55,453 nucleotides of DNA. Source: an uncultured Candidatus Saccharibacteria bacterium (lineage in GTDB: Bacteria > Patescibacteriota > Minisyncoccia > UBA6257 > WO2-44-18). The stretch covers positions 1 to 55,453 of the forward strand of contig CAZWVU010000005.1 of the NCBI GenBank assembly GCA_964637575.1, written 5' to 3'. The translations under genes were made by a program, and so were the position numbers. Positions 11,109-55,453 of this stretch are shown here, in pieces. The first letter of the stretch is position 1; each line of letters starts with the position of its first letter. The notes beneath the pieces are model-generated. The model was not told where the DNA came from. It worked only from the letters and a program-made list of their open reading frames with translations, and made no database searches.

Positions 11109-11178
11109 GCCCCTCTTTTCTCGCCAGCATTGCGGAGGGATGTCTGGACCGGAGTCCTGCTGGCGAGAAAAGAGGGGC
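11109..11178. repeat. 21-bp perfect hairpin, possibly a diverged E-family member
   Basis: GCCCCTCTTTTCTCGCCAGCA (11109-11129) is the exact reverse complement of 11158-11178; 28-nt loop. Confidence 0.75.
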
Positions 11179-11205: not shown

Positions 11206-12390
11206 GTGACATGGAGGATTCCCATTAAGCTAACGTCGCTTCTTAAGCCCTTGCTGAAAGGCAAAGACGATAGGTTTTTGGTGCTGGAAATGTATGAACA
11301 CAGCGCCCGGGCTGCTTCCATCCGCGCCGATTTTCTCAAGAAACAGCTCCAGATACTAAACGTGCGGAGCGGTTCCGATCTGAAAACCCTCCTCAAAAAA
11401 TTCGGCCGGCTGACGAAATATAAAATTATCGTCAGTCTGGATTCGCATCTTGCTTCCACCATGTATTCTTCGATCGTCCTTCCGCGCGAGCACCACCAGG
11501 AGCTGATCGACGAACCGGAACTCGACAATCTTATTTCCCAGGCCATCTGGAAATTTTTTGACCGGTCGCGCAATAAAGTTGCGGGAAAGATGGGCGTCGC
11601 CGATCTGGACATCATGCTTACCGATGTGCGCATCCGTGGCATCAAGCTCGACGGACACAAGGTGGTGAATCCAATCGGGTTCAAAGCGCGCACGGTGGAA
11701 GTGCAGTTCAGCCAGACGTTTCTTTCCCGCGGCTTCATCGACAGCATCAAAGAACTCGTGCCGCTCAGCAACGTGGTGCTGATCAGCGAAAACGGCACCG
11801 CCTGGGCGAGCGTGATCGCGAAGGGCGGAGCGGATCAGAAATTCCTTCTCGCGAACCTTTATCCTTCCGCGACCAAAATTTTCTTGGCCGACGGCAGCCA
11901 GAATGCCTTTTACGATCATGTACGCTGGGGCGAAAATCATCTGAAGCAGGCGGTCGGAGACAATCTGGGGGTGGATTCCGAGATCGCCGGGCTGATTATC
12001 GGCCGGTATATGAACGCCGGCACCTCCGAAACCTTCCGCCGCCGCCTGGAAGCGGTGATTATGAAGGAAATGCTCACGCTGGCGCATGCGTTGGAAGTTG
12101 CCTCCAAAAAATCGGATACGCGCCTCATCTATCTGCACCCGTTTTTCCAGGCGCCCAACCTTTTCAGCGCTAATTTCAGAAACCAGTTTGATCGGAGTGT
12201 CCAGCTCCAGCCCCTGACACTTGACTTAATTAGTCAAAAATTTGGGTTTGCGGTAACATGGAAACATAGCGCGGATGCGCAATACATCTTTAGTATGCTG
12301 GCGGCGTTGATCGAGTGGTACCTTTCGCCGCACGATGACAAAATGAGCCAACTCGCGAAGCGGAGAGTGCGGTGGCTGTCACCGGTTTAA
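11206..12390 (+). CDS. hypothetical protein, weak FtsA/PilM-like (actin-fold) resemblance
   Basis: GTG start. The segment VRIRGIKLDGHKVVNPIGFKARTVEVQF resembles the FtsA/PilM pattern 'DG..gv.nPiGm.g..l.v'. This is a by-eye match only. Confidence 0.35.
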   Translation: MTWRIPIKLTSLLKPLLKGKDDRFLVLEMYEHSARAASIRADFLKKQLQILNVRSGSDLKTLLKKFGRLTKYKIIVSLDSHLASTMYSSIVLPREHHQELIDEPELDNLISQAIWKFFDRSRNKVAGKMGVADLDIMLTDVRIRGIKLDGHKVVNPIGFKARTVEVQFSQTFLSRGFIDSIKELVPLSNVVLISENGTAWASVIAKGGADQKFLLANLYPSATKIFLADGSQNAFYDHVRWGENHLKQAVGDNLGVDSEIAGLIIGRYMNAGTSETFRRRLEAVIMKEMLTLAHALEVASKKSDTRLIYLHPFFQAPNLFSANFRNQFDRSVQLQPLTLDLISQKFGFAVTWKHSADAQYIFSMLAALIEWYLSPHDDKMSQLAKRRVRWLSPV

Positions 12391-12432
12391 AACTATAGGT
12401 CTTAAAGGACCTATAGGACTTATAAGTCCTAT

Positions 12433-13986
12433 ATGCAGAAAATTCCCATTCATAAAATTCAGAAGCTGACCGTCAACAAAGGCGACGACGTGGCTTTGGT
12501 GGTGGAAAAAATAATCGACGCCGACGCGAAAGAGGTCGTGCTGAACATTCCGCGTTTTTCGAAGCTCGCCGAATCGCTCTCGAACTTCCATCTCATCAAG
12601 CGGGAGGCCGGTCTCCTGAAGAAAAAGATCATTATTGAATCCGTGGACGACAAGATTATCGAGCTCGCAGGCGTGGCGGGACTGGATTCCTGGAATCCGA
12701 TTCTGTCCCGGACCAAACGTCAGTTTGCCGATATTGTCTCCAACCGGAAGAGCAGGGAAGAGACGGAAGAGAGCAATATCCTGAAACGTAAACTTGTGGA
12801 GTCGGTGCGGGAGCGGCCGATCGCCGGCCAGGGAAAGCGCGCGCGGCGTTCGCGCGTCCGCCGCGCGGTGTGGAGCACCGCCGCGGTGATTGTCGTGGCC
12901 GGTCTGGTATGGCTGGCGGCGGTTACTCTGCCGCGGGCCGACATTACGCTGGCGATGACCAGAACGGACTGGACCTACAATGATGCCGTGGTGGCCCAGA
13001 AGCTTGCCGCGGTGGATCCGAAGGCCGCCACGGTGCCCAGTCAGATTTTTACGGAAAAGCAGACGATGCAGCTGTCCTACCCCGCGAGCGGGAAAAAGTC
13101 CGTCGCCCAGAAGGCGACCGGCCAGGTTACTGTCTATAATGCCTACAGCTCCGATCCCCAGCCGCTGGTGGCGACGACCCGGCTGGTGGCTCCGGACGGA
13201 AAAATTTTCCGGCTGGCGAAAAGCGTGACGGTGCCCGGCGCCAAAATCGTGGAAGGAAGTATTATTCCCTCGACGCTGGCCGTCGACGTAGTAGCTGATC
13301 AGGCGGGCGCCGACTACAACATCGGACCGGTCAGCCACTTCACCATTCCCGGATTCAAGGGATCGCCGAAATATTCCGCATTTTACGCCGAGTCCGGGAG
13401 CCCGATGACGGGTGGCTATGTGGGATTGGTGGCGTATCCCACCGATGCCGACCTTGCGAAAGCGAAATCGGATGTCGCGGCGAAAATGAAAGACGTGATC
13501 CGCCAGAAGATTACGGCTCAGATTCCTGCAGATTTCAAAATCATCGACGGCGCCTCCAGTTTTTCGGTACTCAAACAGAATGTAGTTGCCGAGCCCAGCG
13601 GCGCCGGCATGTTCATGATTGCCACGGACGCCCAGATGACCGCAATCGCGTTCCGCGAAGCGGATGTGCTGAAAATGCTCACTGGCAAGCTGGAGAAGGA
13701 CCGCGGCAGTGATTATGGAATAAGAAACTTCACGTTGACCTACGGGGTGGGGCGGGCGGATTTCACCGGCGGGAAAGTAAGCTTCCCGGTGAATTTCAAG
13801 GCGACGATTGCCCGGAATATCGACGTGGACGCGCTCCGCGAGCAGGTCCGCGGGAAGTCGGAAGCCGACCTGCGCCAGATCGTATACAGCATTCCGTCCA
13901 TCCAGACCATCCACGTCTCCCTTTGGCCGTTCTGGGTACATTCCGTGCCTAAAAATCCCGATAAAATAAGCATCACTGTTGACTAA
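12433..13986 (+). CDS. hypothetical single-pass membrane protein (517 aa)
   Basis: Cytoplasmic N-domain, basic linker, TM AAVIVVAGLVWLAAVTL, large extracytoplasmic beta-rich region. Confidence 0.5.
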   Translation: MQKIPIHKIQKLTVNKGDDVALVVEKIIDADAKEVVLNIPRFSKLAESLSNFHLIKREAGLLKKKIIIESVDDKIIELAGVAGLDSWNPILSRTKRQFADIVSNRKSREETEESNILKRKLVESVRERPIAGQGKRARRSRVRRAVWSTAAVIVVAGLVWLAAVTLPRADITLAMTRTDWTYNDAVVAQKLAAVDPKAATVPSQIFTEKQTMQLSYPASGKKSVAQKATGQVTVYNAYSSDPQPLVATTRLVAPDGKIFRLAKSVTVPGAKIVEGSIIPSTLAVDVVADQAGADYNIGPVSHFTIPGFKGSPKYSAFYAESGSPMTGGYVGLVAYPTDADLAKAKSDVAAKMKDVIRQKITAQIPADFKIIDGASSFSVLKQNVVAEPSGAGMFMIATDAQMTAIAFREADVLKMLTGKLEKDRGSDYGIRNFTLTYGVGRADFTGGKVSFPVNFKATIARNIDVDALREQVRGKSEADLRQIVYSIPSIQTIHVSLWPFWVHSVPKNPDKISITVD

Positions 13987-17784: not shown

Positions 17785-17852
17785 GTCCTTCTGTTCTTCT
17801 CCTCGCCGGGACGTCGGGCTACAATCCCGTCTGCGGGAAGAACAGCAGTCCT
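17785..17852 (+). repeat. conserved hairpin element E, copy 2
   Basis: Outer stem CTGTTCTTC/GAAGAACAG (17791-17799/17838-17846) around the core TCCTCG-CCGGGA-CGTCGGGCTACAA-TCCCG-TCTGCGG. Confidence 0.75.
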
Positions 17853-30253: not shown

Positions 30254-30352
30254 CATTTTTTGCGTATAAATAGCGCAGTATTTTGATTCCGGCCCGCCAG
30301 ACTTTTGCCTTGTGGCAGAAGCGCGGCGACGCCAATGTTAGGAGGACTTGTC

Positions 30353-31051
30353 GTGGCGAAAACGACAACCCTGAAGCAGGCAAGGAAGATCCTGGAGATC
30401 TTCGAGGACGCGTCGGTGGAGCAGATGCAGGCGATCCTGGAATCGGGACTGCTTACCGATCTTCGCCTCGCGGATATTTGGGGGATTGACCGGAATAAGT
30501 TCCGGGGGCTGTGCGCGCTCCCGCCGCTTGAGTCGGAAAATGGGGCCGGCGCAAAGAAGGTTCACAACTTCAAGATTTGGAAGACTATCAAACTCGGCAC
30601 TGGTCTCCGGACCGCCAACGATTTCCGGAAAGCCCTCAAGAAGGCCAACTGCAAGATCTCTGAACGGGCCAACGAGATCCTTGGCAAATCGGCGTTCACC
30701 GCCGCCACCGAGGAGACAGAAGTAGACCTAGTAGCGGTCTCAGTCGCCGAACTGAGTTTCCCCGGCGGTGCCACCCGAGAGAAGATCTACCGCAGAGCCC
30801 AAGAACTCGGCTTGGGGCTTTGTCCGGCAGAAGTCGGTCCGCAACTGCGCCTGCAATACAATGATCAACCCAGCTTCGAATGGCTTTTTATAGGAATGGA
30901 CCCCGTCACTGACTCGAATCGCAATCTCAGAATGTTCTTTGTTGAGCGCGATGGCTTCACCCTGTGGCTCTCCGCCAACTCTGGCGACGCCGACCGTTTC
31001 TGGAACGGCGGCTTTCGCTGGGTGTTCGTCCTCCCGCGCCCCGTAAAATAG
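30353..31051 (+). CDS. orphan protein (~232 aa)
   Basis: AGGAGG is 7 nt before GTG 30353 (alternative ATG at 30335); own terminator. Confidence 0.5.
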   Translation: MAKTTTLKQARKILEIFEDASVEQMQAILESGLLTDLRLADIWGIDRNKFRGLCALPPLESENGAGAKKVHNFKIWKTIKLGTGLRTANDFRKALKKANCKISERANEILGKSAFTAATEETEVDLVAVSVAELSFPGGATREKIYRRAQELGLGLCPAEVGPQLRLQYNDQPSFEWLFIGMDPVTDSNRNLRMFFVERDGFTLWLSANSGDADRFWNGGFRWVFVLPRPVK

Positions 31052-31085: not shown

Positions 31086-31122
31086 ATCCCCATCGGACTC
31101 CGGTCCGCTGGGGATTTTTTTC
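31086..31122 (+). terminator. intrinsic terminator
   Basis: Stem ATCCCCA/TGGGGAT with structured loop, then TTTTTTT. Confidence 0.65.
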
Positions 31123-31170
31123 CAACCGCGCTGCTCAAGCTACCACCCAGAAAATCGCAACAAAACAAGT

Positions 31171-31315
31171 GGCTGCCGCCAATTTTTGAGCCGACCGTTT
31201 CGCAGGCCGAGCGGGCAGGGTGTCCGTCAGCAGACGGACGAGCGAGGCCGAGAACGAGCGCAATTTTCTCGCCGGGAAAATTGATAGCGTGTCGGCGAGA
31301 ATGTTGGCGGTAGCC
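31171..31315 (-). repeat. structured repeat R, copy A (minus orientation)
   Basis: ~145 nt, roughly 85% identical by eye to 36670-36810 in inverted orientation. Closing stem GGCT-A-CCGCCAA/TTGGCGG-C-AGCC; internal hairpin GTCCGTC/GACGGAC at 31222-31239. Confidence 0.8.
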
Positions 31316-31365
31316 ATAGCTATTTGCCAAAAAAAATCGTTGAGGTACAATAAGACCAATCTTTT

Positions 31366-32415
31366 ATGAAATCTCCGCTGGCGATTTTTTCTAAAAATGT
31401 CGGGATCGATCTCGGCACGGCGAACTCGCTCGTGTATCTCGCGGGCCGCGGCATTGTCATCAACGAGCCGTCCATCGCGGCGCTCAACGCCAAGACCAAC
31501 CAGGTGCTTGCCATTGGCGAGGAGGCCAAGAAAATGATCGGCCGCACGCCTCAGCACATCAACGTCATCCGCCCGCTGGTCAACGGCGTCATCTCCGATT
31601 TCGAAATGGCGCAGGAAATGCTCCGGCATTTTCTCCGCAAACTCGGCGGCACGAAAATTTTCTACAGTTTCCAGAAAGCGGTCATCGGCGTGCCGAGCAA
31701 TCTCACGGAAGTGGAACGGAAATCGGTGGAGGACGCGGTGGTAGGTGCCGGCGTCTCCAAAGCCTTCATCATCGAAGAGCCGATCGCGGCCGCGCTCGGC
31801 GCGCGTCTGCCGATCGAGGAACCGGCGGCGAATATGATCATCGACATCGGCGGCGGCACCAGCGAGATCGCCATTATTTCTATGGGCGGGACGGTAACGT
31901 CCAAAAGTCTGAAAATTGCCGGCGACCGCCTGAACGACGACATTATCCGGTTCATCCGCGACGAGTTCAAACTGGCGATCGGAGAGCCGACGGCGGAAGA
32001 ATTGAAAATCCATATCGGATCGGCCCTGCCGCTCAATGAAAAAATGGAGATGACCATCCGCGGCCGCGATCTGGCAACCGGCCTGCCGCGCGAGGCGATC
32101 GTCCGGGATACCCACATCCGGGCTGCCATCGTGAAATCCCTGAAATCCATCGTGGAAGCGGTTAAAGAGGTGATCGAGGTTTCCCCGCCGGAGCTGGCGG
32201 GCGATATTCTCAAGCGGGGTATTTATATGTGCGGCGGTGGCAGCCTGCTGAAAGGCATGGATCAGTTGCTGGCCCGGGAGTTGGGAGTGCTCACGAATAT
32301 CGTTGACGATCCGCTGACCTGCGTCGCGCGCGGTACCGGCGTGGCCGTGGAGAATCTTGCCAAGTACCAGATCATTTTGGATAACCCGCTCCGGCCCCGG
32401 GATATTAAAATTTAA
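31366..32415 (+). CDS. mreB: rod-shape actin homolog MreB (copy 2)
   Basis: VGIDLGTANS, NEPSIAA, DIGGGTSEIAI; followed by mreC-mreD. Confidence 0.9.
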   Translation: MKSPLAIFSKNVGIDLGTANSLVYLAGRGIVINEPSIAALNAKTNQVLAIGEEAKKMIGRTPQHINVIRPLVNGVISDFEMAQEMLRHFLRKLGGTKIFYSFQKAVIGVPSNLTEVERKSVEDAVVGAGVSKAFIIEEPIAAALGARLPIEEPAANMIIDIGGGTSEIAIISMGGTVTSKSLKIAGDRLNDDIIRFIRDEFKLAIGEPTAEELKIHIGSALPLNEKMEMTIRGRDLATGLPREAIVRDTHIRAAIVKSLKSIVEAVKEVIEVSPPELAGDILKRGIYMCGGGSLLKGMDQLLARELGVLTNIVDDPLTCVARGTGVAVENLAKYQIILDNPLRPRDIKI

Positions 32416-32521
32416 ATTTACAATTTTAAATTTTCAATCAATTGTAAATGACTCAATGTTTAAAACATTTAAGAATTAAATCATTCATTTCAAATTTAAA
32501 CTTTACAATTTCAAATTTTTC
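32411..32521. repeat. AT-rich intergenic element, copy 2
   Basis: Shares TTTAAATTTACAATT and other blocks with 3081-3196; palindrome AATGTTTaAAACATT at 32455-32469. Confidence 0.7.
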
Positions 32522-33124
32522 ATGAAATACTCCTGGCTTCTGACCCTAGTCGCGCTGCTTGCCATCGCCATGTTCCATAACGCCATCGTGCCTGCCAAAA
32601 CGAATCTGGCGGCGGTGATCAGTCTCGAACGTTTTCCGCAGCCCCAGCACGTGAAGCAGAATGGCCGCGAAGTGCTGGTCGCTCAGGTGTATTCCACATA
32701 CCCGTTTAATAACCGGAGCATCCTTACGGTGGCGGCCGGATCCGAAGAAGGCATCCGTCCGGGAATGGTGGTTACCGCCGACGGGAATTATCTTCTGGGG
32801 CAGGTCACAGAGGTGTTTGACCATCTCAGCAACGTGCGGACCATTTTTGACAAGGACTGGCAGATTTCCGCGAGGGTGGGATCGGCGCAGGCAGACGCGC
32901 TTCTGGTGAGCGGGCAGCAGCCCTCGCTGACCATGATTGATAAAAAAATCGCGGTCGCGGAGGGTGATCCGGTTATTTCCGCGAGCCGGGATTTTCCTTA
33001 CGGACTCAAGATCGGGACAATCAGCGGCATCGAGTCGGCCGGCGAAGTTTCCTTCCAGCAGGGAATGCTTCAGGTGCCGTATCAGGTAAACGACCTTAAA
33101 GAAGTCGCGATCATTATCCGCTGA
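32522..33124 (+). CDS. mreC: rod shape-determining protein MreC (short form)
   Basis: N-terminal TM; GIRPGMVV...LGQVTEV...NVRTI...GDPVISAS...FPYGLKIGTI pattern; gene order. Confidence 0.7.
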   Translation: MKYSWLLTLVALLAIAMFHNAIVPAKTNLAAVISLERFPQPQHVKQNGREVLVAQVYSTYPFNNRSILTVAAGSEEGIRPGMVVTADGNYLLGQVTEVFDHLSNVRTIFDKDWQISARVGSAQADALLVSGQQPSLTMIDKKIAVAEGDPVISASRDFPYGLKIGTISGIESAGEVSFQQGMLQVPYQVNDLKEVAIIIR

Positions 33125-33127
33125 TCG

Positions 33128-33601
33128 ATGACGCCTCTGAAATTTTTCGGAGTGGCCGCGTTGATCGTGCTCCTGGGCGCGATCCAGAATACCAACTGGC
33201 TGATGGTCGGCGGCACCAAACCCGATCTGCTGCTGGCCGGCATGATCGCGCTCGCCTTTTTCACGGAGCATATCTGGCAGTACGGATTTTTCATTTTGCT
33301 CGCGGGCGCGATGCTGAAAACGCAGGGATTCTTCGCGCCGGAGCTGGTAGTCTTCACGCTTTTGCTGATCCTGGCCGCCTGGATTGCCGCAGTCTGGCGC
33401 GCCAAGCCGGTGTTCATGAACCTCCTGTTGACGGGAGGTGCGACCATCGCGTTCTATCTTTTTACCGGTCCTTCATACATCTTTTCCTATCCTGGGCCGC
33501 TGGCGCTGGAATTAGGGTACAATCTTATTCTGGGCGCGATGATATTTAAAATTTTTGAAACATGTCTAGGCCATAAGAAAGCAATATTTTCCAGCAATTA
33601 A
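33128..33601 (+). CDS. mreD: rod shape-determining protein MreD-like membrane protein
   Basis: Polytopic hydrophobic 157-aa protein directly after mreC. Confidence 0.55.
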   Translation: MTPLKFFGVAALIVLLGAIQNTNWLMVGGTKPDLLLAGMIALAFFTEHIWQYGFFILLAGAMLKTQGFFAPELVVFTLLLILAAWIAAVWRAKPVFMNLLLTGGATIAFYLFTGPSYIFSYPGPLALELGYNLILGAMIFKIFETCLGHKKAIFSSN

Positions 33602-33837
33602 TAAGAGCAATTTTGTTATGCTGCCGCGACGCGAGGGCGCAGGCGTAGATTCTACGCCCAGCCCGAGCAACAAAGGTCAGAGCATACAAAATTGCCTTAC
33701 CCCGAAGGGGAGCTATGCATTTTGGCCAGTTACGGCGTTGCTCCTCCTCGCAGTGCGTTGCACAGCTTCGTCGTCGCGCCTTGTACCTGTCTCAAAATGT
33801 ATGCTTCAATTTGGAAAGATATTGCTTTCTTATGGCC
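33569..33837 (+). promoter_or_regulatory. 19-bp inverted repeat bracketing a structured ~230-nt mreD-mrdA spacer
   Basis: GGCCATAAGAAAGCAATAT (33569-33587) is the exact reverse complement of 33819-33837, which contains the mrdA ATG (33832). The spacer holds hairpins GGCGTAG/CTACGCC and CCCC/GGGG. Confidence 0.7.
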
Positions 33838-35658
33838 AACGAGCTCAATGTTGAGGACTTAGTGTTCAACGACGAACACCAGGAATCGGACTATCTGGAA
33901 TTGCCTCTCTCGCGCCAGACGTTTTTTCTGGTTGCCGGCGCGATCATCCTGACCGGCCTTTTGGCGCTGGGAAGAGTGGGGTTCCTCGCCATCGCGAAGG
34001 GTAATTTTTATTCCGGCCGGGCGAGCGCCAATGTGGATAAGGAGGTGATGATTCCGGCGCCGCGCGGTATTATTGTCGACCGGTTCGGGAATCCACTGGT
34101 GGAAAATAAAAACGTCTTCAGTCTTTTTTTGAATGTCGCCGACCTGCGCAAACAGCCGGATACCATCGATCCGCTGGTCGCCAATCTGGGCGAGATCGCG
34201 GGTGTGGACGCCGCGGCGCTCAAAGACGCGATTATCAGCGCCGATCTGGAGCAGAGCAGTTTTATCGCGGTGGCCCGGAATATCACTCCTGCGCAGGTCA
34301 TTAAGATGAAAGATCTCAATCTGCCGTATCTGTATGTCAGCGAGGATTACATGAGAAATTACCCGGACGGCGCGGTCTTCAGCCAGGTGATTGGTTATAC
34401 CGGCAGTACCGATAAGGCGAATAATGTCGGCGGAAAAGCCGGCCTCGAGCTTCAGTACAACACCCAGCTTCAGGGGACAGAGGGCAGACTGCTGGTATAC
34501 CGGGACGCCGCGGGCAAACCGATCGACAGCAAGGTGGACCAGTTGCCGCAGGCGGGCGCCAAGCTTGTCACGTCGATCGATAAGGATCTTCAGCGTTATT
34601 TTTACGACCGGCTGAAACAGGGACTGGTTTCGCTCGGGCGGGAATCGGGCGCGGGCCTCGCGCTGGATCCGCGCACGGGAGAAGTGCTGGCGATGGTCAG
34701 CTTTCCGAGCTTTGACAACAACCACGTCGCCGCGTATCTCAACGCGCCGCACCAGCCGCTTTTCAACAGGGCGATTTCCGGCATCTACACGCCGGGTTCC
34801 ACAATCAAGCCGCTCGTCGGCCTCGCGGCGCTCCACGAGCACATTATCGATCCGCTGAAACAGATTCTTTCCGTCGGTTATATCGAACTGCCCAATCCGT
34901 ATGACGCGCAACACCCGAGCCGGTTTCTGGACTGGCGGCCGCAGGGCTGGGTGGATCTTCATTCCGCGCTCGCGCGCTCGAGCAACGTCTATTTCTATGA
35001 AGTGGGCGGCGGATTCCAGGATCAGAAGGGACTGGGAATCGATATGCTGAAAAAATACTGGCAGCATTTTCTTCTCGGCGTGAAGACTGGCATTGATTTT
35101 CCGGGAGAGGGCGCCGGATTTTTGCCCGACCCGGTTGAAAAAGAAAAGCGTACCGGCCAGATCTGGCGCATCGGCGACACCTATAACGTCAGTATCGGCC
35201 AGGGCGATCTCATGCTTACGCCGATTCAGCTCCTCGGTTTCATTTCCTCCATCGCCAATGGCGGGAAAATCCTGCAACCGCACATGCTTTTCGGCGAACC
35301 AGTTACCACGCTGCTGGACTATTCCGACTGGACCAGCGAGCTTCACGAAGTGCAGGAGGGCATGAAAGACACTGTCCGGAAGCCGTATGGCACGGCGTTT
35401 TCCATGAATGACCTGCCTTTCAGCGTTGCGGCGAAGACCGGATCCTCGCAGGTGTCCAACAATACCAAAACCAACGCGTTTTTCGTCGGATACGCGCCGG
35501 CCGACAACCCGCAGATCGCGGTGCTGGTGCTGATCGAAAACGCCAAAGAAGGAAGCTTGAACGCGGTGCCGATCGCGAAGGACGTCTTCGAATGGTATTA
35601 TCAGAACAGAATAAGTAACGGGAAAAATGAGCAAAATAACCAAACTTCTTCACCCTAA
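33832..35658 (+). CDS. mrdA: penicillin-binding protein 2 (elongasome transpeptidase)
   Basis: TM after MANELNV...; SxxK (STIK), SxN (SSN), KTG (KTGSS). The track start 33715 was rejected. Confidence 0.85.
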   Translation: MANELNVEDLVFNDEHQESDYLELPLSRQTFFLVAGAIILTGLLALGRVGFLAIAKGNFYSGRASANVDKEVMIPAPRGIIVDRFGNPLVENKNVFSLFLNVADLRKQPDTIDPLVANLGEIAGVDAAALKDAIISADLEQSSFIAVARNITPAQVIKMKDLNLPYLYVSEDYMRNYPDGAVFSQVIGYTGSTDKANNVGGKAGLELQYNTQLQGTEGRLLVYRDAAGKPIDSKVDQLPQAGAKLVTSIDKDLQRYFYDRLKQGLVSLGRESGAGLALDPRTGEVLAMVSFPSFDNNHVAAYLNAPHQPLFNRAISGIYTPGSTIKPLVGLAALHEHIIDPLKQILSVGYIELPNPYDAQHPSRFLDWRPQGWVDLHSALARSSNVYFYEVGGGFQDQKGLGIDMLKKYWQHFLLGVKTGIDFPGEGAGFLPDPVEKEKRTGQIWRIGDTYNVSIGQGDLMLTPIQLLGFISSIANGGKILQPHMLFGEPVTTLLDYSDWTSELHEVQEGMKDTVRKPYGTAFSMNDLPFSVAAKTGSSQVSNNTKTNAFFVGYAPADNPQIAVLVLIENAKEGSLNAVPIAKDVFEWYYQNRISNGKNEQNNQTSSP

Positions 35659-36640
35659 GCCGGAGCTCCGGCAGGATCCGGTTTCCGGCGACTGGATTGT
35701 GATCGCGCCGGCGCGGGCGAAGCGCCCGTCGGATCTGATGGCGAAAACACCGAAGCGGAAGCGGGCGCCGAAAAGCACCTGTCCGTTCGAGAATCCGCAG
35801 GCAAGCGGCAATCCCGAGCCGTTTCTGGTGTATCCGAATAAACATGACTGGGCGATTCAGGTGCTGGAAAACAAATATCCGGCGTTGATGCATTCCGCGC
35901 AGTGCGGCGTTACTTCAAAGCGGGGGCCGCACCTCACCCATCCCGGCTTCGGCCACCACGATCTTCTGGTGACCGCCGACCATGATAAAAATTTCGCGCA
36001 TCTTTCACCGGAGCAGGCGAATCTGGTGTTTCAGGCCTTCCGCGACCGCTACCTGATGCTCTATAACGACAAGTGTGTGCAATATATTTCCATGTTCCAT
36101 AACTGGGGGCCGGCGGCCGGCGCGTCGGTGTACCATCCGCATTACCAAATCATCGCCTTGCCGGTAGTGCCGCCGGACGTCCATCACTCGTTGGCAGGTT
36201 CCGCCCGGTATTTCCGGGAACACCGGCAGTGCGTCCATTGCGCGATGCTGGCCTGGGAGCAGAAGGAACGGAAACGGATCATTTATGAAAACGACGGCGC
36301 GGTGGCGCTGGCACCCTTCGTGTCGAGGAGCCCGTTCGAGGTGCGGGTGTTCCCGAAAAAGCATCTGTCCTATTTTGAAAATACCCATGATCTGGATGTG
36401 GAGTCGGCGGTGGACGCGCTCCAGATGGCGTTGAAAAGTTTTGAGAAAAATCTTCACGACGTTGATTACAACTTTTTCATCCACACGGCGCCGCTCCGCG
36501 ACAAGGAACGGTTCCGGCATTACCACTGGCACATTGAGGCGTATCCGAAAGTGGCGATCCGCGCCGGTTTTGAATTAGGGACAGGAATCGAGATCAATGT
36601 GGTGGACCCGGACGCCGCGGCGCGCCTGCTCCGCGCTTAG
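35627..36640 (+). CDS. galactose-1-phosphate uridylyltransferase family (HIT branch) protein
   Basis: STCPFENP and YHPHYQI (HxHxQ) motifs; overlaps the mrdA 3' end by 32 nt. Confidence 0.6.
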   Translation: MSKITKLLHPKPELRQDPVSGDWIVIAPARAKRPSDLMAKTPKRKRAPKSTCPFENPQASGNPEPFLVYPNKHDWAIQVLENKYPALMHSAQCGVTSKRGPHLTHPGFGHHDLLVTADHDKNFAHLSPEQANLVFQAFRDRYLMLYNDKCVQYISMFHNWGPAAGASVYHPHYQIIALPVVPPDVHHSLAGSARYFREHRQCVHCAMLAWEQKERKRIIYENDGAVALAPFVSRSPFEVRVFPKKHLSYFENTHDLDVESAVDALQMALKSFEKNLHDVDYNFFIHTAPLRDKERFRHYHWHIEAYPKVAIRAGFELGTGIEINVVDPDAAARLLRA

Positions 36641-36669
36641 TTTGTTGGCTGTCCACGTCGTTGTTGGTA

Positions 36670-36810
36670 GCCGCCGCCAACATTCTTGCCGACACGCTAT
36701 CAATTTTCCCAGCGAGAAAATTGCGCTCGTTCTCGGCCTCGCTCGTCTCGCTTCGCGAGACACCTGCCCGCTCGGCCTGCGAAACGGTCGGCTCAAACAT
36801 TGCCGGCGGC
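36670..36810 (+). repeat. structured repeat R, copy B (plus orientation)
   Basis: Closing stem GCCGCCGCCAA/TTGCCGGCGGC. Internal hairpin GTCTCGC/GCGAGAC at 36745-36761 covaries with copy A. Confidence 0.8.
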
Positions 36811-36866
36811 ATCTTGTTTGTCATTGCGAGGCCTGGCGAAGCAATCTCACCGCTAAGCAGGCGCGC

Positions 36867-36923: not shown

Positions 36924-37472
36924 GTGACATCCAAACAGCTGGAGTCCAGGGTCCGCCGGATCATTCAGGAGGCGGGGAAACGGAAGATATACAAGAAGGC
37001 GCACGAGCTCGCGATCAAGTTTGCCGAGGAATTTGGCAGCCAAAAGATCGAAGTGCGCAGCGATCATACCAATACCGACCGCCGCGTCAATATTTATACC
37101 GGCAATGGCCAGGTTTCAATCTGGATGTGGAACAGCCACTGGGGGCCGATGAATATTGAAATCCGTTTGGATTGCATCCCGGTGTTCAGGGCGCATTCGG
37201 CGAGCCGGTTTGACGTAAAGGATGCCAAGGCCAAAGGTCGGGAGTGGCAATACGCCCAGCAGGGACTGGATGACTACGCCCGCGTGGAGCTTTACAAACC
37301 CGGCCAGTGGGAGCGGGTGCTGGAGGTGCACGAGGCCGAACGGTTGCTGAAAGCCGAACGTGACGCCAAGACGTCGCTGGAGGAAAAGAAAAAGAAAGAG
37401 GCGGAGCGGAACAAGCCGCTCACCGAAGAGGAAAAGAAACTCGCCGCCAACTTCGGCATCAGGGTTCAATAA
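36924..37472 (+). CDS. orphan protein (182 aa) with Lys/Glu-rich C-terminal helix
   Basis: GAGGAGG just upstream of GTG; own promoter and terminator. Confidence 0.5.
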   Translation: MTSKQLESRVRRIIQEAGKRKIYKKAHELAIKFAEEFGSQKIEVRSDHTNTDRRVNIYTGNGQVSIWMWNSHWGPMNIEIRLDCIPVFRAHSASRFDVKDAKAKGREWQYAQQGLDDYARVELYKPGQWERVLEVHEAERLLKAERDAKTSLEEKKKKEAERNKPLTEEEKKLAANFGIRVQ

Positions 37473-47210: not shown

Positions 47211-47267
47211 ACCCTCCTTCTCCTCGACAGGACGTCGGGCTTCAATCCTGTCTGCGGGAAGGAGGGT
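47211..47267 (+). repeat. conserved hairpin element E, copy 3
   Basis: Outer stem ACCCTCCTTC/GAAGGAGGGT around the core TCCTCG-ACAGGA-CGTCGGGCTTCAA-TCCTGT-CTGCGG. Confidence 0.8.
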
Positions 47268-54533: not shown

Positions 54534-54595
54534 TATGTTTTTTCTTTTATCCCACACATACCTGTGAGTATTGCAGACAGCGAAGCCGCTCAAAG

Positions 54596-55453
54596 TTATG
54601 TGTGGGATTTTATTTCTTTCAGTGCGCGCTTCACGAAGTCCGCAACTTTCATCACGTCATTTTTTTTGCTGTCTTTGTAGTGCCGGACGCTGACGGCGCC
54701 ATCGGCTACTTCTTTGTCGCCGACGACGGCGATGAACGGCACGCGGCGGATCTCCGCTTCGCGGATCTTTTTGCCGATGCTTTCGTTCTGGATGTTCAAT
54801 TTCGCGCGTACACCCCTCTTCTGGAGTTTCTTGGCGATCTGCCCGGCGTATTTCATCTGGCCTTCGCCGATACTCATCACTTCCACCTGGACAGGGGAGA
54901 GCCAGGTCGGGAGATGGCCGTCGGTGTGTTCCAACAGCATGCCGATGAACCGCTCAAAGGAACCGAAGATCGCGCGGTGAATGACCCAGGGAAGTTTCTT
55001 GGAACCGTCCTCGGCGGTGTAGTAGGTTTCAAACTGTTTTGGCAGCATCACCAGATCCAGCTGGGCGGTGCCCAACTGCCAGTCGCGGCCGAGCGAGTCG
55101 TTGAGGTGAACCTCAATTTTCGGGCCGTAAAAGGCGCCCTCGCCTTTGGCGATCGTGAACTGCTTGCCCGCCTTATTCAAGGCCTCGGTCAGCGCTTTTT
55201 CCGCCTTGTCCCAGTCCTCAACCGAACCGAGCGCTTTTTCCGGGCGGGTGGCGAGGATGTAGGTCGCTTTCAGGTTGAACATGGCGTAGAAGCGGTCCAG
55301 CATCGCCATAAAATTGATAACTTCTTTCTTTACCTGATTTGGCATAGCGTAGATGTGCGCGTCGTCCATCGTGATCTGGCGCACGCGGAACATGCCCCCG
55401 AGCGTGCCGGAGAGTTCGTTGCGGTGCAGGCGGCCGATCTCGGCGAGGCGGAG
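54596..55453 (-). CDS. thrS: threonine--tRNA ligase, C-terminal part (5' end beyond the window)
   Basis: The frame is open to the window edge: LAEIGRLHRNELSGTLGGMFRVRQITMDDAHIY (class II motifs), C-terminal anticodon-binding domain. Confidence 0.9.
   Translation of the reverse strand, partial: LRLAEIGRLHRNELSGTLGGMFRVRQITMDDAHIYAMPNQVKKEVINFMAMLDRFYAMFNLKATYILATRPEKALGSVEDWDKAEKALTEALNKAGKQFTIAKGEGAFYGPKIEVHLNDSLGRDWQLGTAQLDLVMLPKQFETYYTAEDGSKKLPWVIHRAIFGSFERFIGMLLEHTDGHLPTWLSPVQVEVMSIGEGQMKYAGQIAKKLQKRGVRAKLNIQNESIGKKIREAEIRRVPFIAVVGDKEVADGAVSVRHYKDSKKNDVMKVADFVKRALKEIKSHT

What the first reader, a model, noticed from the sequence alone, without database searches (positions are those of the whole stretch)
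31171..36810. Inverted ~145-nt structured repeats bracket the mreB-mreC-mreD-mrdA-GalT-like block
Copy A (31171-31315, minus orientation) and copy B (36670-36810, plus orientation) are about 85% identical by eye. They flank a 5.3-kb segment that holds the whole elongasome operon.

The differences between the copies are structured:
- The internal hairpin is GTCCGTC-agca-GACGGAC in A and GTCTCGC-ttc-GCGAGAC in B, four compensated positions.
- The closing helix is rebuilt with different sequence: GGCTaCCGCCAA/TTGGCGGcAGCC versus GCCGCCgCCAA/TTGcCGGCGGC.

That pattern argues for a selected RNA (or ssDNA) fold rather than a decaying transposon end. No transposase or target duplication is visible. 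As inverted repeats they could also mediate inversion of the operon.

After the core, copy B continues into a CATTGCGAGG...GCGAAGCAATC hairpin (about 36822-36847).
Basis: seen in the sequence. Interest (0 to 1): 0.65.

Follow-up and report, generated by a model that had tools for sequence, protein, structure and literature searches.

The report
Mobile folded repeats flank mreB operon
The two inverted ~145-base repeats around the cell-shape (mreB) operon are real, but they are two of eight copies of an undescribed, gene-less, tightly folded repeat that comes and goes in the tiny genomes of Patescibacteria, not a control element or flip-switch of the operon.

Summary
Copy A (31170-31316) and copy B (36670-36810) are inverted copies, about 90% identical, whose differences keep the stems paired. 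They are not specific to the operon. This 781-kb genome has eight copies, and the family occurs in 116 of 401 genomes of the order and 36 of 401 sampled across the phylum. It has no match in Rfam, phage, plasmid or viral collections, or in the papers searched.

Covariation is very strong: 96% of cells paired against about 40% in slid controls, with compensatory changes in every helix. It defines a Y-shaped fold on one strand. A long closing helix of free sequence carries a conserved three-way-junction core with G-A-rich internal loops.

Same-genus relatives lack A and B. One true empty site shows that the whole element, closing helix included, is the inserted unit. Other sites hold core-deleted remnants. 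Orientation relative to genes is random, and dedicated promoters and terminators are absent. Y1 transposase, reverse transcriptase and TnpB do not track the element.

Best reading (0.6): a non-autonomous mobile element whose single-strand fold, DNA or RNA, is needed for its own spread.

The parts
31170..31316 (+). Copy A of the repeat (147 nt). The folded 'R' strand is the + strand.
   Evidence: 170 bits with model R1; 127.6 bits with R2.
31170..31187 (+). A: 5' arm of closing helix P1. It pairs with 31299-31316. The distal 6 bp (TGGCTG/TAGCCA) are specific to this copy.
31299..31316 (+). A: 3' arm of closing helix P1.
31190..31296 (+). A: conserved core. P2 is 31190-31195/31291-31296. Arm 1 consists of P3' (31196-31201/31252-31256), P4x (GGCC-GA-GC 31205-31212 / GC-GA-GGCC 31242-31249, with a tandem G.A) and P5. 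Arm 2 consists of P7 (31258-59/31287-88) and P8 (31261-31270/31274-31283).
   Evidence: Mutual-information scan; pair counts on the revised structure.
31222..31239 (+). A: variable hairpin P5 (GTCCGTC-AGCA-GACGGAC).
36670..36810 (-). Copy B of the repeat (141 nt). The folded 'R' strand is the - strand. It starts 30 nt after the stop codon of the GalT/HIT-like gene.
   Evidence: (183 bits).
36745..36761 (-). B: variable hairpin P5 (GTCTCGC-GAA-GCGAGAC on the R strand), a C-GAA-G triloop.
36822..36846 (+). Small hairpin CATTGCGAGG..GCGAAGCAATC next to B. It is a member of a separate hairpin repeat family (also beside the C7:11130 copy, at C1:9265 and C2:148080, and beside two copies of the 37-nt family).
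31088..31121 (+). Intrinsic terminator of the upstream 248-aa ORF. It separates that gene from copy A.
31324..31351 (+). mreB promoter-like site (TTGCCA-16-TACAAT). It lies between copy A and the mreB ATG (31366) and is conserved in G001, G002 and G003.
31366..36640 (+). Operon mreB, mreC, (mreD), mrdA/PBP2 and GalT/HIT-like gene. It is syntenic in relatives and is not part of the element.

Best explanation
A and B are two independent insertions of a small, gene-less, non-autonomous mobile element family of Patescibacteria. The family has no match in Rfam 15, in the phage, plasmid and viral collections searched, or in the held paper library.

The unit is about 140-160 nt. It consists of a closing helix P1 of 16-22 bp that is free in sequence, a tandem G.A, a 6-bp helix P2, and a conserved three-way junction. 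One arm of the junction is P3'-P4x-P5, with G-A-rich internal loops and a variable tip. The other arm is P7-P8.

Shown here:
- It is a multicopy, dispersed family.
- It has a patchy, phylum-wide distribution.
- The fold is strand-specific and maintained by covariation.
- A and B are present only in this lineage.
- The whole unit, including P1, is the inserted DNA.
- Copies decay by internal deletion, and they nest or recombine.
- There is no dedicated promoter or terminator.
- Orientation is random relative to genes, with a preference for the 3' ends of genes.

Inferred:
- The fold of one strand is conserved because it is the substrate or intermediate of the element's own copy-and-paste. On present hints this strand is more likely single-stranded DNA than RNA.
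- That substrate is recognised by a trans-acting factor that I could not identify. It is not a Y1/HUH transposase, reverse transcriptase or TnpB.
- At this locus the copies are bystanders. A sits between the upstream terminator and the mreB promoter. B sits after the last stop codon, where it would be transcribed in antisense as a hairpin tail of the operon mRNA.
For: Family and copy number:
- Six near-identical copies plus two diverged copies in the 781-kb genome.
- 116 of 401 genomes of the order and 36 of 401 across the phylum, often 8 or more copies per genome, with foreign hits of 114-120 bits.

Structure:
- 96.3% of cells paired, against 36-46% when partners are slid.
- Covariation score 0.70 against 0.17 for shuffles.
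- Compensatory changes in all 9 helices.

Strand:
- G.U exceeds A.C by 181 to 35 overall, and by 91 to 22 in the sequence-free P1.
- The R strand folds 15-20 kcal/mol better.

Gain and loss:
- proS abuts mreB with no element in G001, G003, G010, G005 and G012.
- G001 has 27 nt where B sits.
- G001's only copy lies at a site that has no full copy in this genome.
- In genus g381, copy L157 faces true empty sites. In G634 the site reads stop codon, ATCT, ATG.
- Four other sites hold core-deleted remnants, and one holds nested or chimeric copies.

P1 travels with the unit: the same P1 occurs at two loci (C3a/C3b and B/C7:11130; two loci of G663).

Not a gene-linked RNA:
- In 43 loci, copies between co-directional genes are 9 sense and 10 antisense; 14 copies lie between convergent genes and 3 between divergent genes.
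- A promoter points into the R strand in 1 of 80 copies. A T-run follows in 2 of 80 (for A and B).
- No neighbouring protein family recurs.

Hints for DNA: P5 tips are 41 triloops, of which 25 are C-GNA-G on 17 different stems, against 5 GNRA and 0 UNCG. From my own knowledge, d(C-GNA-G) mini-hairpins are exceptionally stable in DNA.
Against: - No mobilising enzyme was found. This genome has no Y1 transposase and no TnpB, a single reverse transcriptase that belongs to a DGR, and no multicopy IS-like gene. Across 46 genomes none of the three families tracks the element.
- No target-site duplication and no conserved target were seen, so the insertion chemistry is unknown.
- A conserved multi-helix core with invariant purine-rich loops, and hairpin expansions at helix tips, is what one expects of a functional RNA or RNP.
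- At least one copy is kept at an orthologous site across two genera with a compensated pair (G210/G260). That suggests constraint in place.
- Why recent paralogs share a 94-100% identical core but differ almost completely in distal P1 and P5 is not explained.
- No expression or read data could be consulted.
Confidence: 0.6

Rival explanations
1. A multicopy family of trans-acting structured non-coding RNA genes. The R-strand transcript would be the functional product, for example the RNA of an RNP. The long P1 would serve as a processing stem (for example for RNase III) that releases the core from any read-through transcript. The genes would duplicate and move.
For: - Very strong covariation and conserved G.U pairs on one strand.
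- Invariant unpaired purines: G86 and A87 in 80 of 80 copies, G107 in 80 of 80, and the tandem G.A motifs.
- Peripheral hairpin expansions at P4, P5 and P8.
- A possible loop-loop pair 50-109 (GU 54, GC 9, AU 6).
- Conservation across classes.
- One orthologous copy retained across genera.
Against: - A sigma-70-like promoter points into the R strand in 1 of 80 copies, and a terminator follows in 2 of 80.
- Several copies start 5-16 nt after an upstream terminator.
- About half the copies between co-directional genes are antisense.
- Copies decay by deletion within one genus.
- 71% of genomes of the order lack the element.
- The P5 loops are DNA-type rather than RNA-type.
Confidence: 0.2
2. A host-useful cis-acting transcript element. 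It would be a large hairpin at the 3' ends of genes that terminates transcription, insulates neighbouring units or protects mRNA 3' ends, as proposed for REP, ERIC and BOX elements. B would play that role for the elongasome operon.
For: - Preference for the 3' ends of genes: 14 copies lie between convergent genes and 3 between divergent genes, and the gap to a convergent stop codon is 30 nt or less in 17 of 27 cases.
- An A-rich tract lies just 5' of P1 in 22 of 80 copies. It reads as a U-tract after the hairpin on the opposite strand.
- At C1:23779 the outer stem plus T-run looks like the terminator of the adjacent gene.
- B begins 30 nt after the last stop codon of the operon.
Against: - A simple hairpin would suffice for this role. 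It does not explain a conserved, strand-specific three-way-junction core, because G.U pairs on the R strand become C.A mismatches in the transcripts of antisense-placed copies.
- Most copies lack a T-tract.
- Relatives with the same operon do without the element.
- Copy A lies upstream of a promoter and after a terminator, outside any mRNA.
Confidence: 0.1
3. A and B form a programmed inversion switch (inverton) for the 5.3-kb elongasome segment.
For: - Inverted arms of 74 nt (97%) and 57 nt (91%) are long enough for homologous recombination.
- In this genome all three contigs that carry two type-1 copies have them in opposite orientation.
Against: - The assembled orientation equals that of the six relatives whose proS and mreB junction could be read on one strand, with proS and mreB co-directional.
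- The mreB promoter lies inside the interval, so a flip would not change expression.
- No recombinase gene lies in or beside the interval.
- Among close pairs of copies in other genomes, 8 are in the same orientation and 7 are opposite.
- A and B are independent insertions of a dispersed family.
Confidence: 0.03
4. A rival on mechanism only. The conserved core would insert into pre-existing hairpins such as terminators, or the insertion would create an inverted copy of the neighbouring sequence. That would explain why each copy has its own distal stem.
For: - The distal P1 is copy-specific yet paired: 3-8 bp in the type-1 copies and 10-15 bp in the two type-2 copies.
- Some stems carry terminator-like A and T tracts.
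- Unchecked notes from this scan claim stems built from neighbouring gene ends in other families.
Against: - The true empty sites for copy L157 contain neither arm of its 22-bp P1 and no palindrome.
- The same P1 is found at different loci.
- The 14-nt distal arm of C1:23779 occurs nowhere else in the genome.
- The 'solo hairpins' retain pieces of the core (TTTCGAG, GAGAAAACC), so they are deletion remnants and not targets.
Confidence: 0.05

Closest known systems
REP/REPIN elements mobilised by RAYT (IS200-like Y1/HUH) transposases in Proteobacteria
   Same: They are short, gene-less, intergenic and multicopy. They form hairpins whose two arms change in a compensated way between copies of one genome. 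They are thought to act as folded single strands, and they turn over between relatives.
   Different: REPs are 20-40-nt palindromes with a conserved 5' tetranucleotide, and they pair up as doublets. This element is a 140-160-nt unit with a conserved three-way-junction core. No Y1 transposase exists in this genome, and the family does not track the element.
ERIC/IRU and YPAL repeats of enterobacteria; Correia/NEMIS of Neisseria; BOX and RUP of pneumococci; bcr1 of the Bacillus cereus group
   Same: Their size is 100-170 nt. They have terminal inverted repeats that fold into a long hairpin. They are intergenic and often lie at the 3' ends of genes in either orientation, they have no coding capacity, and no linked transposase is known for most of them.
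   Different: There is no sequence relation, and the host phylum is different. Those elements are essentially rod hairpins with conserved termini, and several show TA target duplications. Here the termini are free in sequence, the conserved part is an internal branched core with strand-specific covariation across a whole phylum, and no duplication is seen. The features of the known families are stated from my own knowledge.
Integron attC sites
   Same: They are recognised as a folded single strand. Structure is conserved and strand-specific. Sizes overlap (57-141 nt).
   Different: attC sites conserve the base of the stem (R''/R' boxes RYYYAAC/GTTRRRY) and vary in the middle, and they stand in co-oriented arrays next to intI. 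Here the base varies, the middle is conserved, and the copies are dispersed in both orientations.
IS200/IS605-derived miniature elements (PATEs) and TnpB omega-RNA scaffolds
   Same: They depend on a strand-specific structure, they make no target duplication, and they are non-autonomous derivatives.
   Different: Their left-end and right-end hairpins do not pair with each other. TnpA and TnpB are absent here. There is no Rfam hit to the IS605-orfB or HEARO models.

Membership tests
Any Rfam 15 RNA family | A covariance-model match at the gathering score, or at least a suggestive E-value. | tested here: not met
   At the gathering threshold the window yields only a tRNA. Nothing overlaps A or B at E up to 10. 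There is nothing on type-2 copies or dimers in 7 loci.
Classical MITE (deletion derivative of a DDE insertion sequence) | Terminal inverted repeats of conserved sequence shared with an autonomous IS in the same or related genomes. | tested here: not met
   P1 shows all four Watson-Crick pair types at nearly every position. Only the proximal ~10 bp are shared among recent paralogs. The genome has no multicopy transposase-like gene.
Classical MITE (deletion derivative of a DDE insertion sequence) | A direct target-site duplication flanking each copy. | tested here: not met
   No direct repeat is seen at the filled-versus-empty comparison for L157 or in the flanks of 80 copies. Only one clean empty site was available.
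Classical MITE (deletion derivative of a DDE insertion sequence) | Small, non-coding, multicopy, with insertion polymorphism. | tested here: met
   The P5 length differences are not multiples of three.
REP/REPIN-RAYT system | A Y1 (HUH) RAYT gene in genomes that carry the repeats. | tested here: not met
   PF01797 is absent from this genome. It is present in 11 of 27 copy-rich and 4 of 19 copy-free genomes.
REP/REPIN-RAYT system | Compensated variation of hairpin arms between copies. | tested here: met
Integron attC site | Conserved R''/R' core sites (RYYYAAC ... GTTRRRY) at the base of the stem, and co-oriented arrays. | tested here: not met
   The stem bases read CGCCAAC/GTTGGCG in this genome and differ in other genomes. 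Copies are dispersed in both orientations. The presence of intI was not tested.
Invertible promoter switch (inverton) | Inverted repeats flanking a promoter-bearing segment whose flip changes expression, a nearby invertase, and both orientations present in the population. | tested here: inconclusive
   The promoter and its operon lie together inside the interval, so no switching logic exists. No recombinase is found.
Riboswitch or 5' leader of mreB | A constant position upstream of orthologous genes, in the sense orientation, within the transcript. | tested here: not met
   It is absent upstream of mreB in 7 relatives. A lies upstream of the promoter. Contexts are varied.
Retron or group II intron-derived retroelement RNA | A linked or co-occurring reverse transcriptase. 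| tested here: not met
   RVT_1 is found in 13 of 27 copy-rich and 12 of 19 copy-free genomes. The only RT of this genome belongs to a DGR and is not adjacent to any copy.
IS200/IS605 miniature derivative or TnpB omega-RNA | TnpA and/or TnpB present. | tested here: not met
   PF07282 is found in 0 of 46 genomes. PF01797 shows no association.

The most novel reading that the evidence does not exclude
The element is one representative of a so far unrecognised class of self-propagating folded single-strand modules in Patescibacteria. Each has a conserved junction core carried on a stem of free sequence. They would spread without any known transposase family, through a structure-reading host or mobile enzyme, or through activity of the nucleic acid itself. 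They might exploit the single-stranded DNA that these naturally competent, DNA-scavenging bacteria take up. A second family in this genome, with a 37-nt core and 28 copies, has the same architecture. Unchecked notes from other windows describe further families with the same design.
Probability: 0.15. Interest if true: 0.85.

Novelty: new variant of a known kind. Interest (0 to 1): 0.6.

Why it matters
Patescibacteria have extremely reduced genomes of 0.5-1.2 Mb, yet up to 8 or more copies of this 150-nt module persist in hundreds of lineages. The fold is conserved as strongly as that of a housekeeping RNA.

If it is selfish DNA, it points to a mobilisation route that needs none of the transposase families tested here, and it supplies a ready-made covariance model for masking false 'novel riboswitch or sRNA' calls in these genomes. 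One example is the long 'infC leader' noted elsewhere in this genome, which contains a copy. If it is an RNA gene, it would be a new multicopy RNP component of a major uncultured phylum.

For this locus, the practical message is that the repeats say nothing about regulation of the elongasome operon.

Tried and rejected
**Coding and known families**
- Coding potential is rejected. The P5 length differences (16, 17, 18 and 19 nt) break any reading frame.
- Known RNA families are rejected after three Rfam scans.

**Other sequence collections**
- Phage or plasmid origin: no blastn match in 50,697 phage records or 72,556 plasmids. Two core-motif scans of viral contigs gave no match.
- Strain-level empty sites for A and B themselves: one scan each of metagenome contigs and genome contigs found only distant relatives, at 35-63% PBP2 identity. 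Intergenic DNA of same-genus genomes is too diverged to align base by base.

**Candidate partners**
- A conserved neighbouring gene: there are only five chance-level pairs among 86 flanking proteins.
- Candidate mobilising enzymes: Y1_Tnp, RVT_1 and the TnpB zinc-ribbon domain show no association. No multicopy IS-like gene exists in this genome.

**Origin of the closing helix**
- Insertion into pre-existing terminator hairpins, or inverted duplication of the target, is contradicted by the L157 empty sites.
- Distal P1 copied from elsewhere in the genome is rejected, because the 14-nt arm is unique.

**Structure and tools**
- The first RNAalifold structure (P3, P4 and P6/7 of model R1) was replaced after the mutual-information scan.
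A trimmed model, R2, was used instead.

**Literature**
- Motif and keyword searches found no description of the family.
Full report
**1. The observation**

The repeat finder gives inverted arms 31237-31310/36674-36747 (74 nt, 97% complementary) and 31163-31219/36763-36819 (57 nt, 91%). The alignment of A(rc) with B is 89-90% identical. The paired elements span 31170-31316 (A) and 36670-36810 (B).

- The internal hairpin is GTCCGTC-AGCA-GACGGAC in A and GTCTCGC-GAA-GCGAGAC in B.
- The outer part of the closing helix differs, and both versions stay paired.

Between the copies lie genes for MreB, MreC, a 157-aa ORF in the mreD position (no Pfam hit), PBP2 and a GalT/HIT-like protein.

Both copies fold far better than dinucleotide shuffles, and one strand is consistently better. 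I call this the 'R' strand; it is the + strand for A and the - strand for B.

| Fold measure | R strand | Opposite strand |
|---|---|---|
| MFE as RNA (A; B), kcal/mol | -76.8; -71.5 | -60.6; -53.1 |
| z-score as RNA (A; B) | -5.9; -4.7 | -4.0; -3.2 |
| z-score as DNA (A; B) | -5.8; -5.5 | -4.2; -3.9 |

None of 200 shuffles folds as well as any of these.

**2. A dispersed family, not an operon feature**

The window lies in a 781-kb, 19-contig genome that is 97% complete. Named relatives are Patescibacteria MAGs.

The genome holds six near-identical copies: C5:31170 (A), C5:36670 (B), C7:852, C7:11130, C3:13084 and C3:133284. It also holds two diverged 'type 2' copies at C1:23779 and C6:30165.

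A covariance model built from the six copies finds full-length matches in 116 of 401 genomes of the order (89 of 251 genera), usually 1-7 per genome. A broader model finds the family in 36 of 401 genomes sampled evenly across the phylum. These belong to many families and other classes, several have 8 or more copies, and some foreign hits score as high as this genome's own copies (114-120 bits).

There is no match in:
- Rfam 15, even at E up to 10;
- phage records or plasmids;
- viral contigs;
- the papers searched.

**3. Structure**

On 50 members aligned to the model, 95.3% of cells form standard pairs, against 36-46% when the 3' partners are slid by 1-3 columns. 48 of 53 pairs show changes on both sides, and no shuffle in 500 reaches the observed values. 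That alignment is fitted to the model, which inflates pairing somewhat, but the slid controls and the many pair types per position leave no doubt.

An all-against-all mutual-information scan on 80 distinct copies showed that the centre of the RNAalifold structure was wrong:
- Positions 33-38 pair with 88-92 (C-G to U-A and U-A to G-C exchanges).
- GGCC (42-45) pairs with GGCC (82-85). Variants include GGUC/GACC, GGGC/GCCC, GGAC/GUCC and GGUU/AACC.
- That helix continues through a tandem G.A into 48-49/78-79.

The revised structure scores 96.3% paired cells and a covariation score of 0.70, with compensatory changes in all nine helices, although the alignment had been fitted to the old structure.

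The fold is Y-shaped:
- P1 (16 bp or more, any sequence), a tandem G.A, and P2 (6 bp) form the stem.
- Arm 1 is P3', an internal loop GCA/GA, P4x with a tandem G.A, the loop GGGCA(U)GGU/GA, and the variable hairpin P5.
- Arm 2 is P7 and P8, with an apical G-C-U loop.

Many unpaired purines are nearly invariant; G86, A87 and G107 are present in 80 of 80 copies. Some members carry hairpin expansions at the tips of P4, P5 or P8. A possible loop-loop pair 50-109 (GU 54, GC 9, AU 6) is only suggestive.

**4. Which strand, and RNA or DNA?**

G.U pairs outnumber A.C combinations 181 to 35 overall. The counts are 91 to 22 in the sequence-free P1, 105 to 6 in P2 and 51 to 3 in P8. So one strand, R, is the folded one.

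That strand shows no sign of being a dedicated transcript:
- In 100 nt upstream of 80 copies, only one sigma-70-like promoter points into R. Only two copies are followed by a T-run.
- Several copies begin 5-16 nt after the terminator of the upstream gene.
- Copy A lies between a terminator (31088-31121) and the mreB promoter (31324-31351). No promoter-like site meeting the scan's criteria is found on either strand around B.

In 43 loci with 1.5-kb flanks, copies between co-directional genes are sense in 9 cases and antisense in 10. Fourteen copies lie between convergent genes and only three between divergent genes.

The free-evolving tip of P5 is a triloop in 41 of 74 classifiable copies. Twenty-five of these are C-GNA-G, on 17 different stems. 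Only five tips are GNRA tetraloops and none is UNCG. From my own knowledge, d(C-GNA-G) mini-hairpins are exceptionally stable in DNA, whereas free-evolving RNA hairpin tips usually drift to GNRA or UNCG.

I read these points together as a moderate hint that the selected fold is single-stranded DNA. G.T wobbles and 5'-Y-GA-R-3' tandem G.A pairs are compatible with either polymer, so this remains an inference.

**5. Gain, loss and what is inserted**

The mreB to GalT-like operon is syntenic in same-genus genomes (G001-G003) and same-family genomes.

In G001, G003, G010, G005 and G012, proS directly precedes mreB and no element is present. This genome has an extra 248-aa ORF, a terminator and copy A in that gap.

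Downstream, G001 has 27 nt between the GalT-like stop codon and a promoter and 5' UTR that is recognisably the same as in this genome. This genome has B and the small hairpin in that position.

G001's only copy lies upstream of the ortholog of window 11212-12690. At that site this genome has a perfect 21-bp hairpin with a 28-nt loop instead.

Because intergenic DNA of these genomes is too diverged for base-level comparison, I used three genomes of another genus (G533, G634, G663; 7 or more copies each):
- For copy L157, both relatives have true empty sites. In G634 the site reads stop codon, ATCT, then the next ATG. Neither arm of the 22-bp P1 and no palindrome is present. So the whole element, including P1, is the inserted DNA, it starts right at the stop codon, and no target duplication is visible.
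- At four other sites the 'empty' genome keeps remnants. These are P1 arms joined by a loop that retains TTTCGAG, a 5' arm plus GAGAAAACC, or a 3'-arm fragment. Copies therefore decay by internal deletion, and solo hairpins such as window 11109-11178 are probably such remnants.
- At one site a complete second element abuts the 3' part of the older one, and the third genome has a chimeric, deleted version.
- The same P1 (GTGGCTGACCTG...) occurs at two loci of G663. In this genome C3a/C3b and B/C7:11130 share their P1. So P1 is transmitted with the unit.

**6. An unexplained feature**

Within this genome the core is 94-100% identical in every pair of copies. Between lineages, the distal P1 (7+7 nt) matches at 1-9 of 14 positions and the inner P5 at 1-3 of 12-14, and both are still paired. 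The same contrast holds in G304, G210, G263, G533 and others.

Orthologous copies in two genera (G210/G260) differ by only 3-4 changes in P1, one of them compensated. So P1 is not hypermutable in place.

Target-derived stems are contradicted (section 5), and the distal arm of C1:23779 occurs nowhere else in the genome. Either paralog lineages are old and their cores are homogenised or very strongly constrained, or the propagation step renews the ends of the stems. I cannot tell which.

**7. Who moves it?**

No protein family recurs next to the copies.

| Family | Copy-rich genomes | Copy-free genomes | This genome |
|---|---|---|---|
| Y1/HUH transposase (PF01797) | 11/27 | 4/19 | absent |
| Reverse transcriptase (PF00078) | 13/27 | 12/19 | one, part of a DGR |
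| TnpB zinc ribbon (PF07282) | 0/27 | 0/19 | absent |

This genome has no multicopy transposase-like gene. Its near-identical gene pairs are GroEL and ComEC fragments on small contigs.

The mobilising factor is therefore unknown. It may be a single-copy host enzyme, something supplied from outside, or the activity may be past.

**8. Verdict on the locus**

A and B are two separate insertions of this family on either side of a conserved operon. A lies outside the transcription unit. B would be transcribed only as the antisense strand, in the 3' tail of the operon mRNA, where any long hairpin might affect 3'-end stability; that is an inference.

Homologous recombination between A and B is physically possible. 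However, the assembled orientation is ancestral, the promoter travels with the operon, no recombinase is nearby, and close pairs of copies in other genomes are as often direct (8) as inverted (7). I put a programmed switch at about 3%.

**9. Comparison with known systems**

In behaviour the element is closest to the structured interspersed repeats of other bacteria: REP/REPIN, ERIC/YPAL, Correia, BOX/RUP and bcr1. It fails the defining tests of the following (see the membership table):
- classical MITEs, because the termini are not conserved, no duplication is seen and no parent IS exists;
- REP-RAYT, because there is no Y1 gene;
- attC sites, because the pattern of conservation is the opposite;
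- IS200/IS605 derivatives;
- retroelement RNAs;
- riboswitches or leaders.

What sets it apart is a branched core conserved across a whole phylum and maintained by strand-specific covariation, carried on a stem whose sequence is free.

Earlier AI notes of this scan describe look-alike stretches in other windows and several other core-on-hairpin families in Patescibacteria. I used them as leads only. One note in this same genome took the 337-nt stretch upstream of infC for a regulatory leader. The infC-like ORF starts near C3:13008 on the - strand, directly downstream of the C3:13084-13240 copy. So that 'leader' contains a copy of this element.

Noticed in passing
window 8151-8219, 17800-17836 (core) and 47221-47257 (core); 28 copies genome-wide (e.g. 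C7:32569-32639, C2:65999-66067): A second dispersed family has the same design. A conserved 37-nt core (TCCTCGCCAGGACGTCGGGCTACAATCCTGTCTGCGG) is enclosed by a perfect stem of up to 17 bp that is partly copy-specific. The proximal part of the stem is CTCCTTC/GAAGGAG.
   Followed up: partly
window 11109-11178: A perfect 21-bp hairpin (GCCCCTCTTTTCTCGCCAGCA) with a 28-nt loop sits at the site where the same-genus genome G001 has its only full copy of the 155-nt element. It is possibly a core-deleted remnant.
   Followed up: partly
window 30305-31051 (VR-like part 30908-31046); genome C3:2227-4503: The genome has a diversity-generating retroelement. TR is C3:3149-3287 and VR is C3:2764-2902, with 20 of 22 mismatches at TR adenines. 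The RT is at C3:3895-4503. The 248-aa ORF just upstream of copy A is a 58%-identical paralog of the target gene. Its VR-like C-terminus is diverged, with 22 of 45 mismatches at A.
   Followed up: partly
window 36822-36846; also C7:11287-11340, C1:9265-9342, C2:148080-148121, and flanks of C3:74736 and C3:4661: A small hairpin repeat, TGTCATTGCGAG-(variable loop)-GCAATCT, recurs next to copies of both larger families. This gives BIME-like mosaics. B, C7:11130 and (partly) A share this 5' extension on the R strand.
   Followed up: partly
window 36924-37472: A 182-aa ORF (only a weak histone-fold hit) lies between a conserved promoter and 5' UTR and the GDPD gene. G001 lacks it and has GDPD directly after the same leader.
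   Followed up: no
window 33569-33590 / 33816-33837: A 22-nt inverted repeat (95% complementary, 19 bp perfect) brackets 225 nt that span the mreD-mrdA junction and the start of mrdA.
   Followed up: no
window 32402-32526: An AT-rich block of direct and inverted repeats (AAATTTAAATTTACAATTT...) lies between mreB and mreC.
   Followed up: no
L041 1344-1661, L037 1501-1860, L053 1337-1668, L028 1494-1827, L015 1348-1553: In five loci of other genomes, a diverged 'type 2' copy and a 'type 1' copy abut with their 5' ends together, in divergent orientation. This is a recurrent dimer arrangement of unknown meaning.
   Followed up: no
80 copies in many genomes (flanks): An A-rich tract lies just 5' of P1 on the R strand in 22 of 80 copies, against a T-rich tract 3' of P1 in 6 of 80. 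This asymmetry is unexplained; it could be a target preference or a U-tract for the antisense transcript.
   Followed up: partly
genome C3:13008-13240: The infC-like ORF (peptide INNQISSPEV, - strand) lies directly downstream of the C3:13084-13240 copy. The long 'leader' noted by another reader therefore contains a copy of this repeat.
   Followed up: partly
genome C1:58471, C4:19015, C4:35811; window 54549-54608: A further repeat has stems starting ATCCCACACATAAC, with perfect stems up to 20 bp and loops of 36-257 nt.
   Followed up: no
genome contigs C11/C12 and C13/C15: Small contigs carry 71-97% identical pairs of ComEC-like, GroEL-like and membrane protein genes. They are probably strain variants co-assembled in the bin rather than true duplications.
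   Followed up: no
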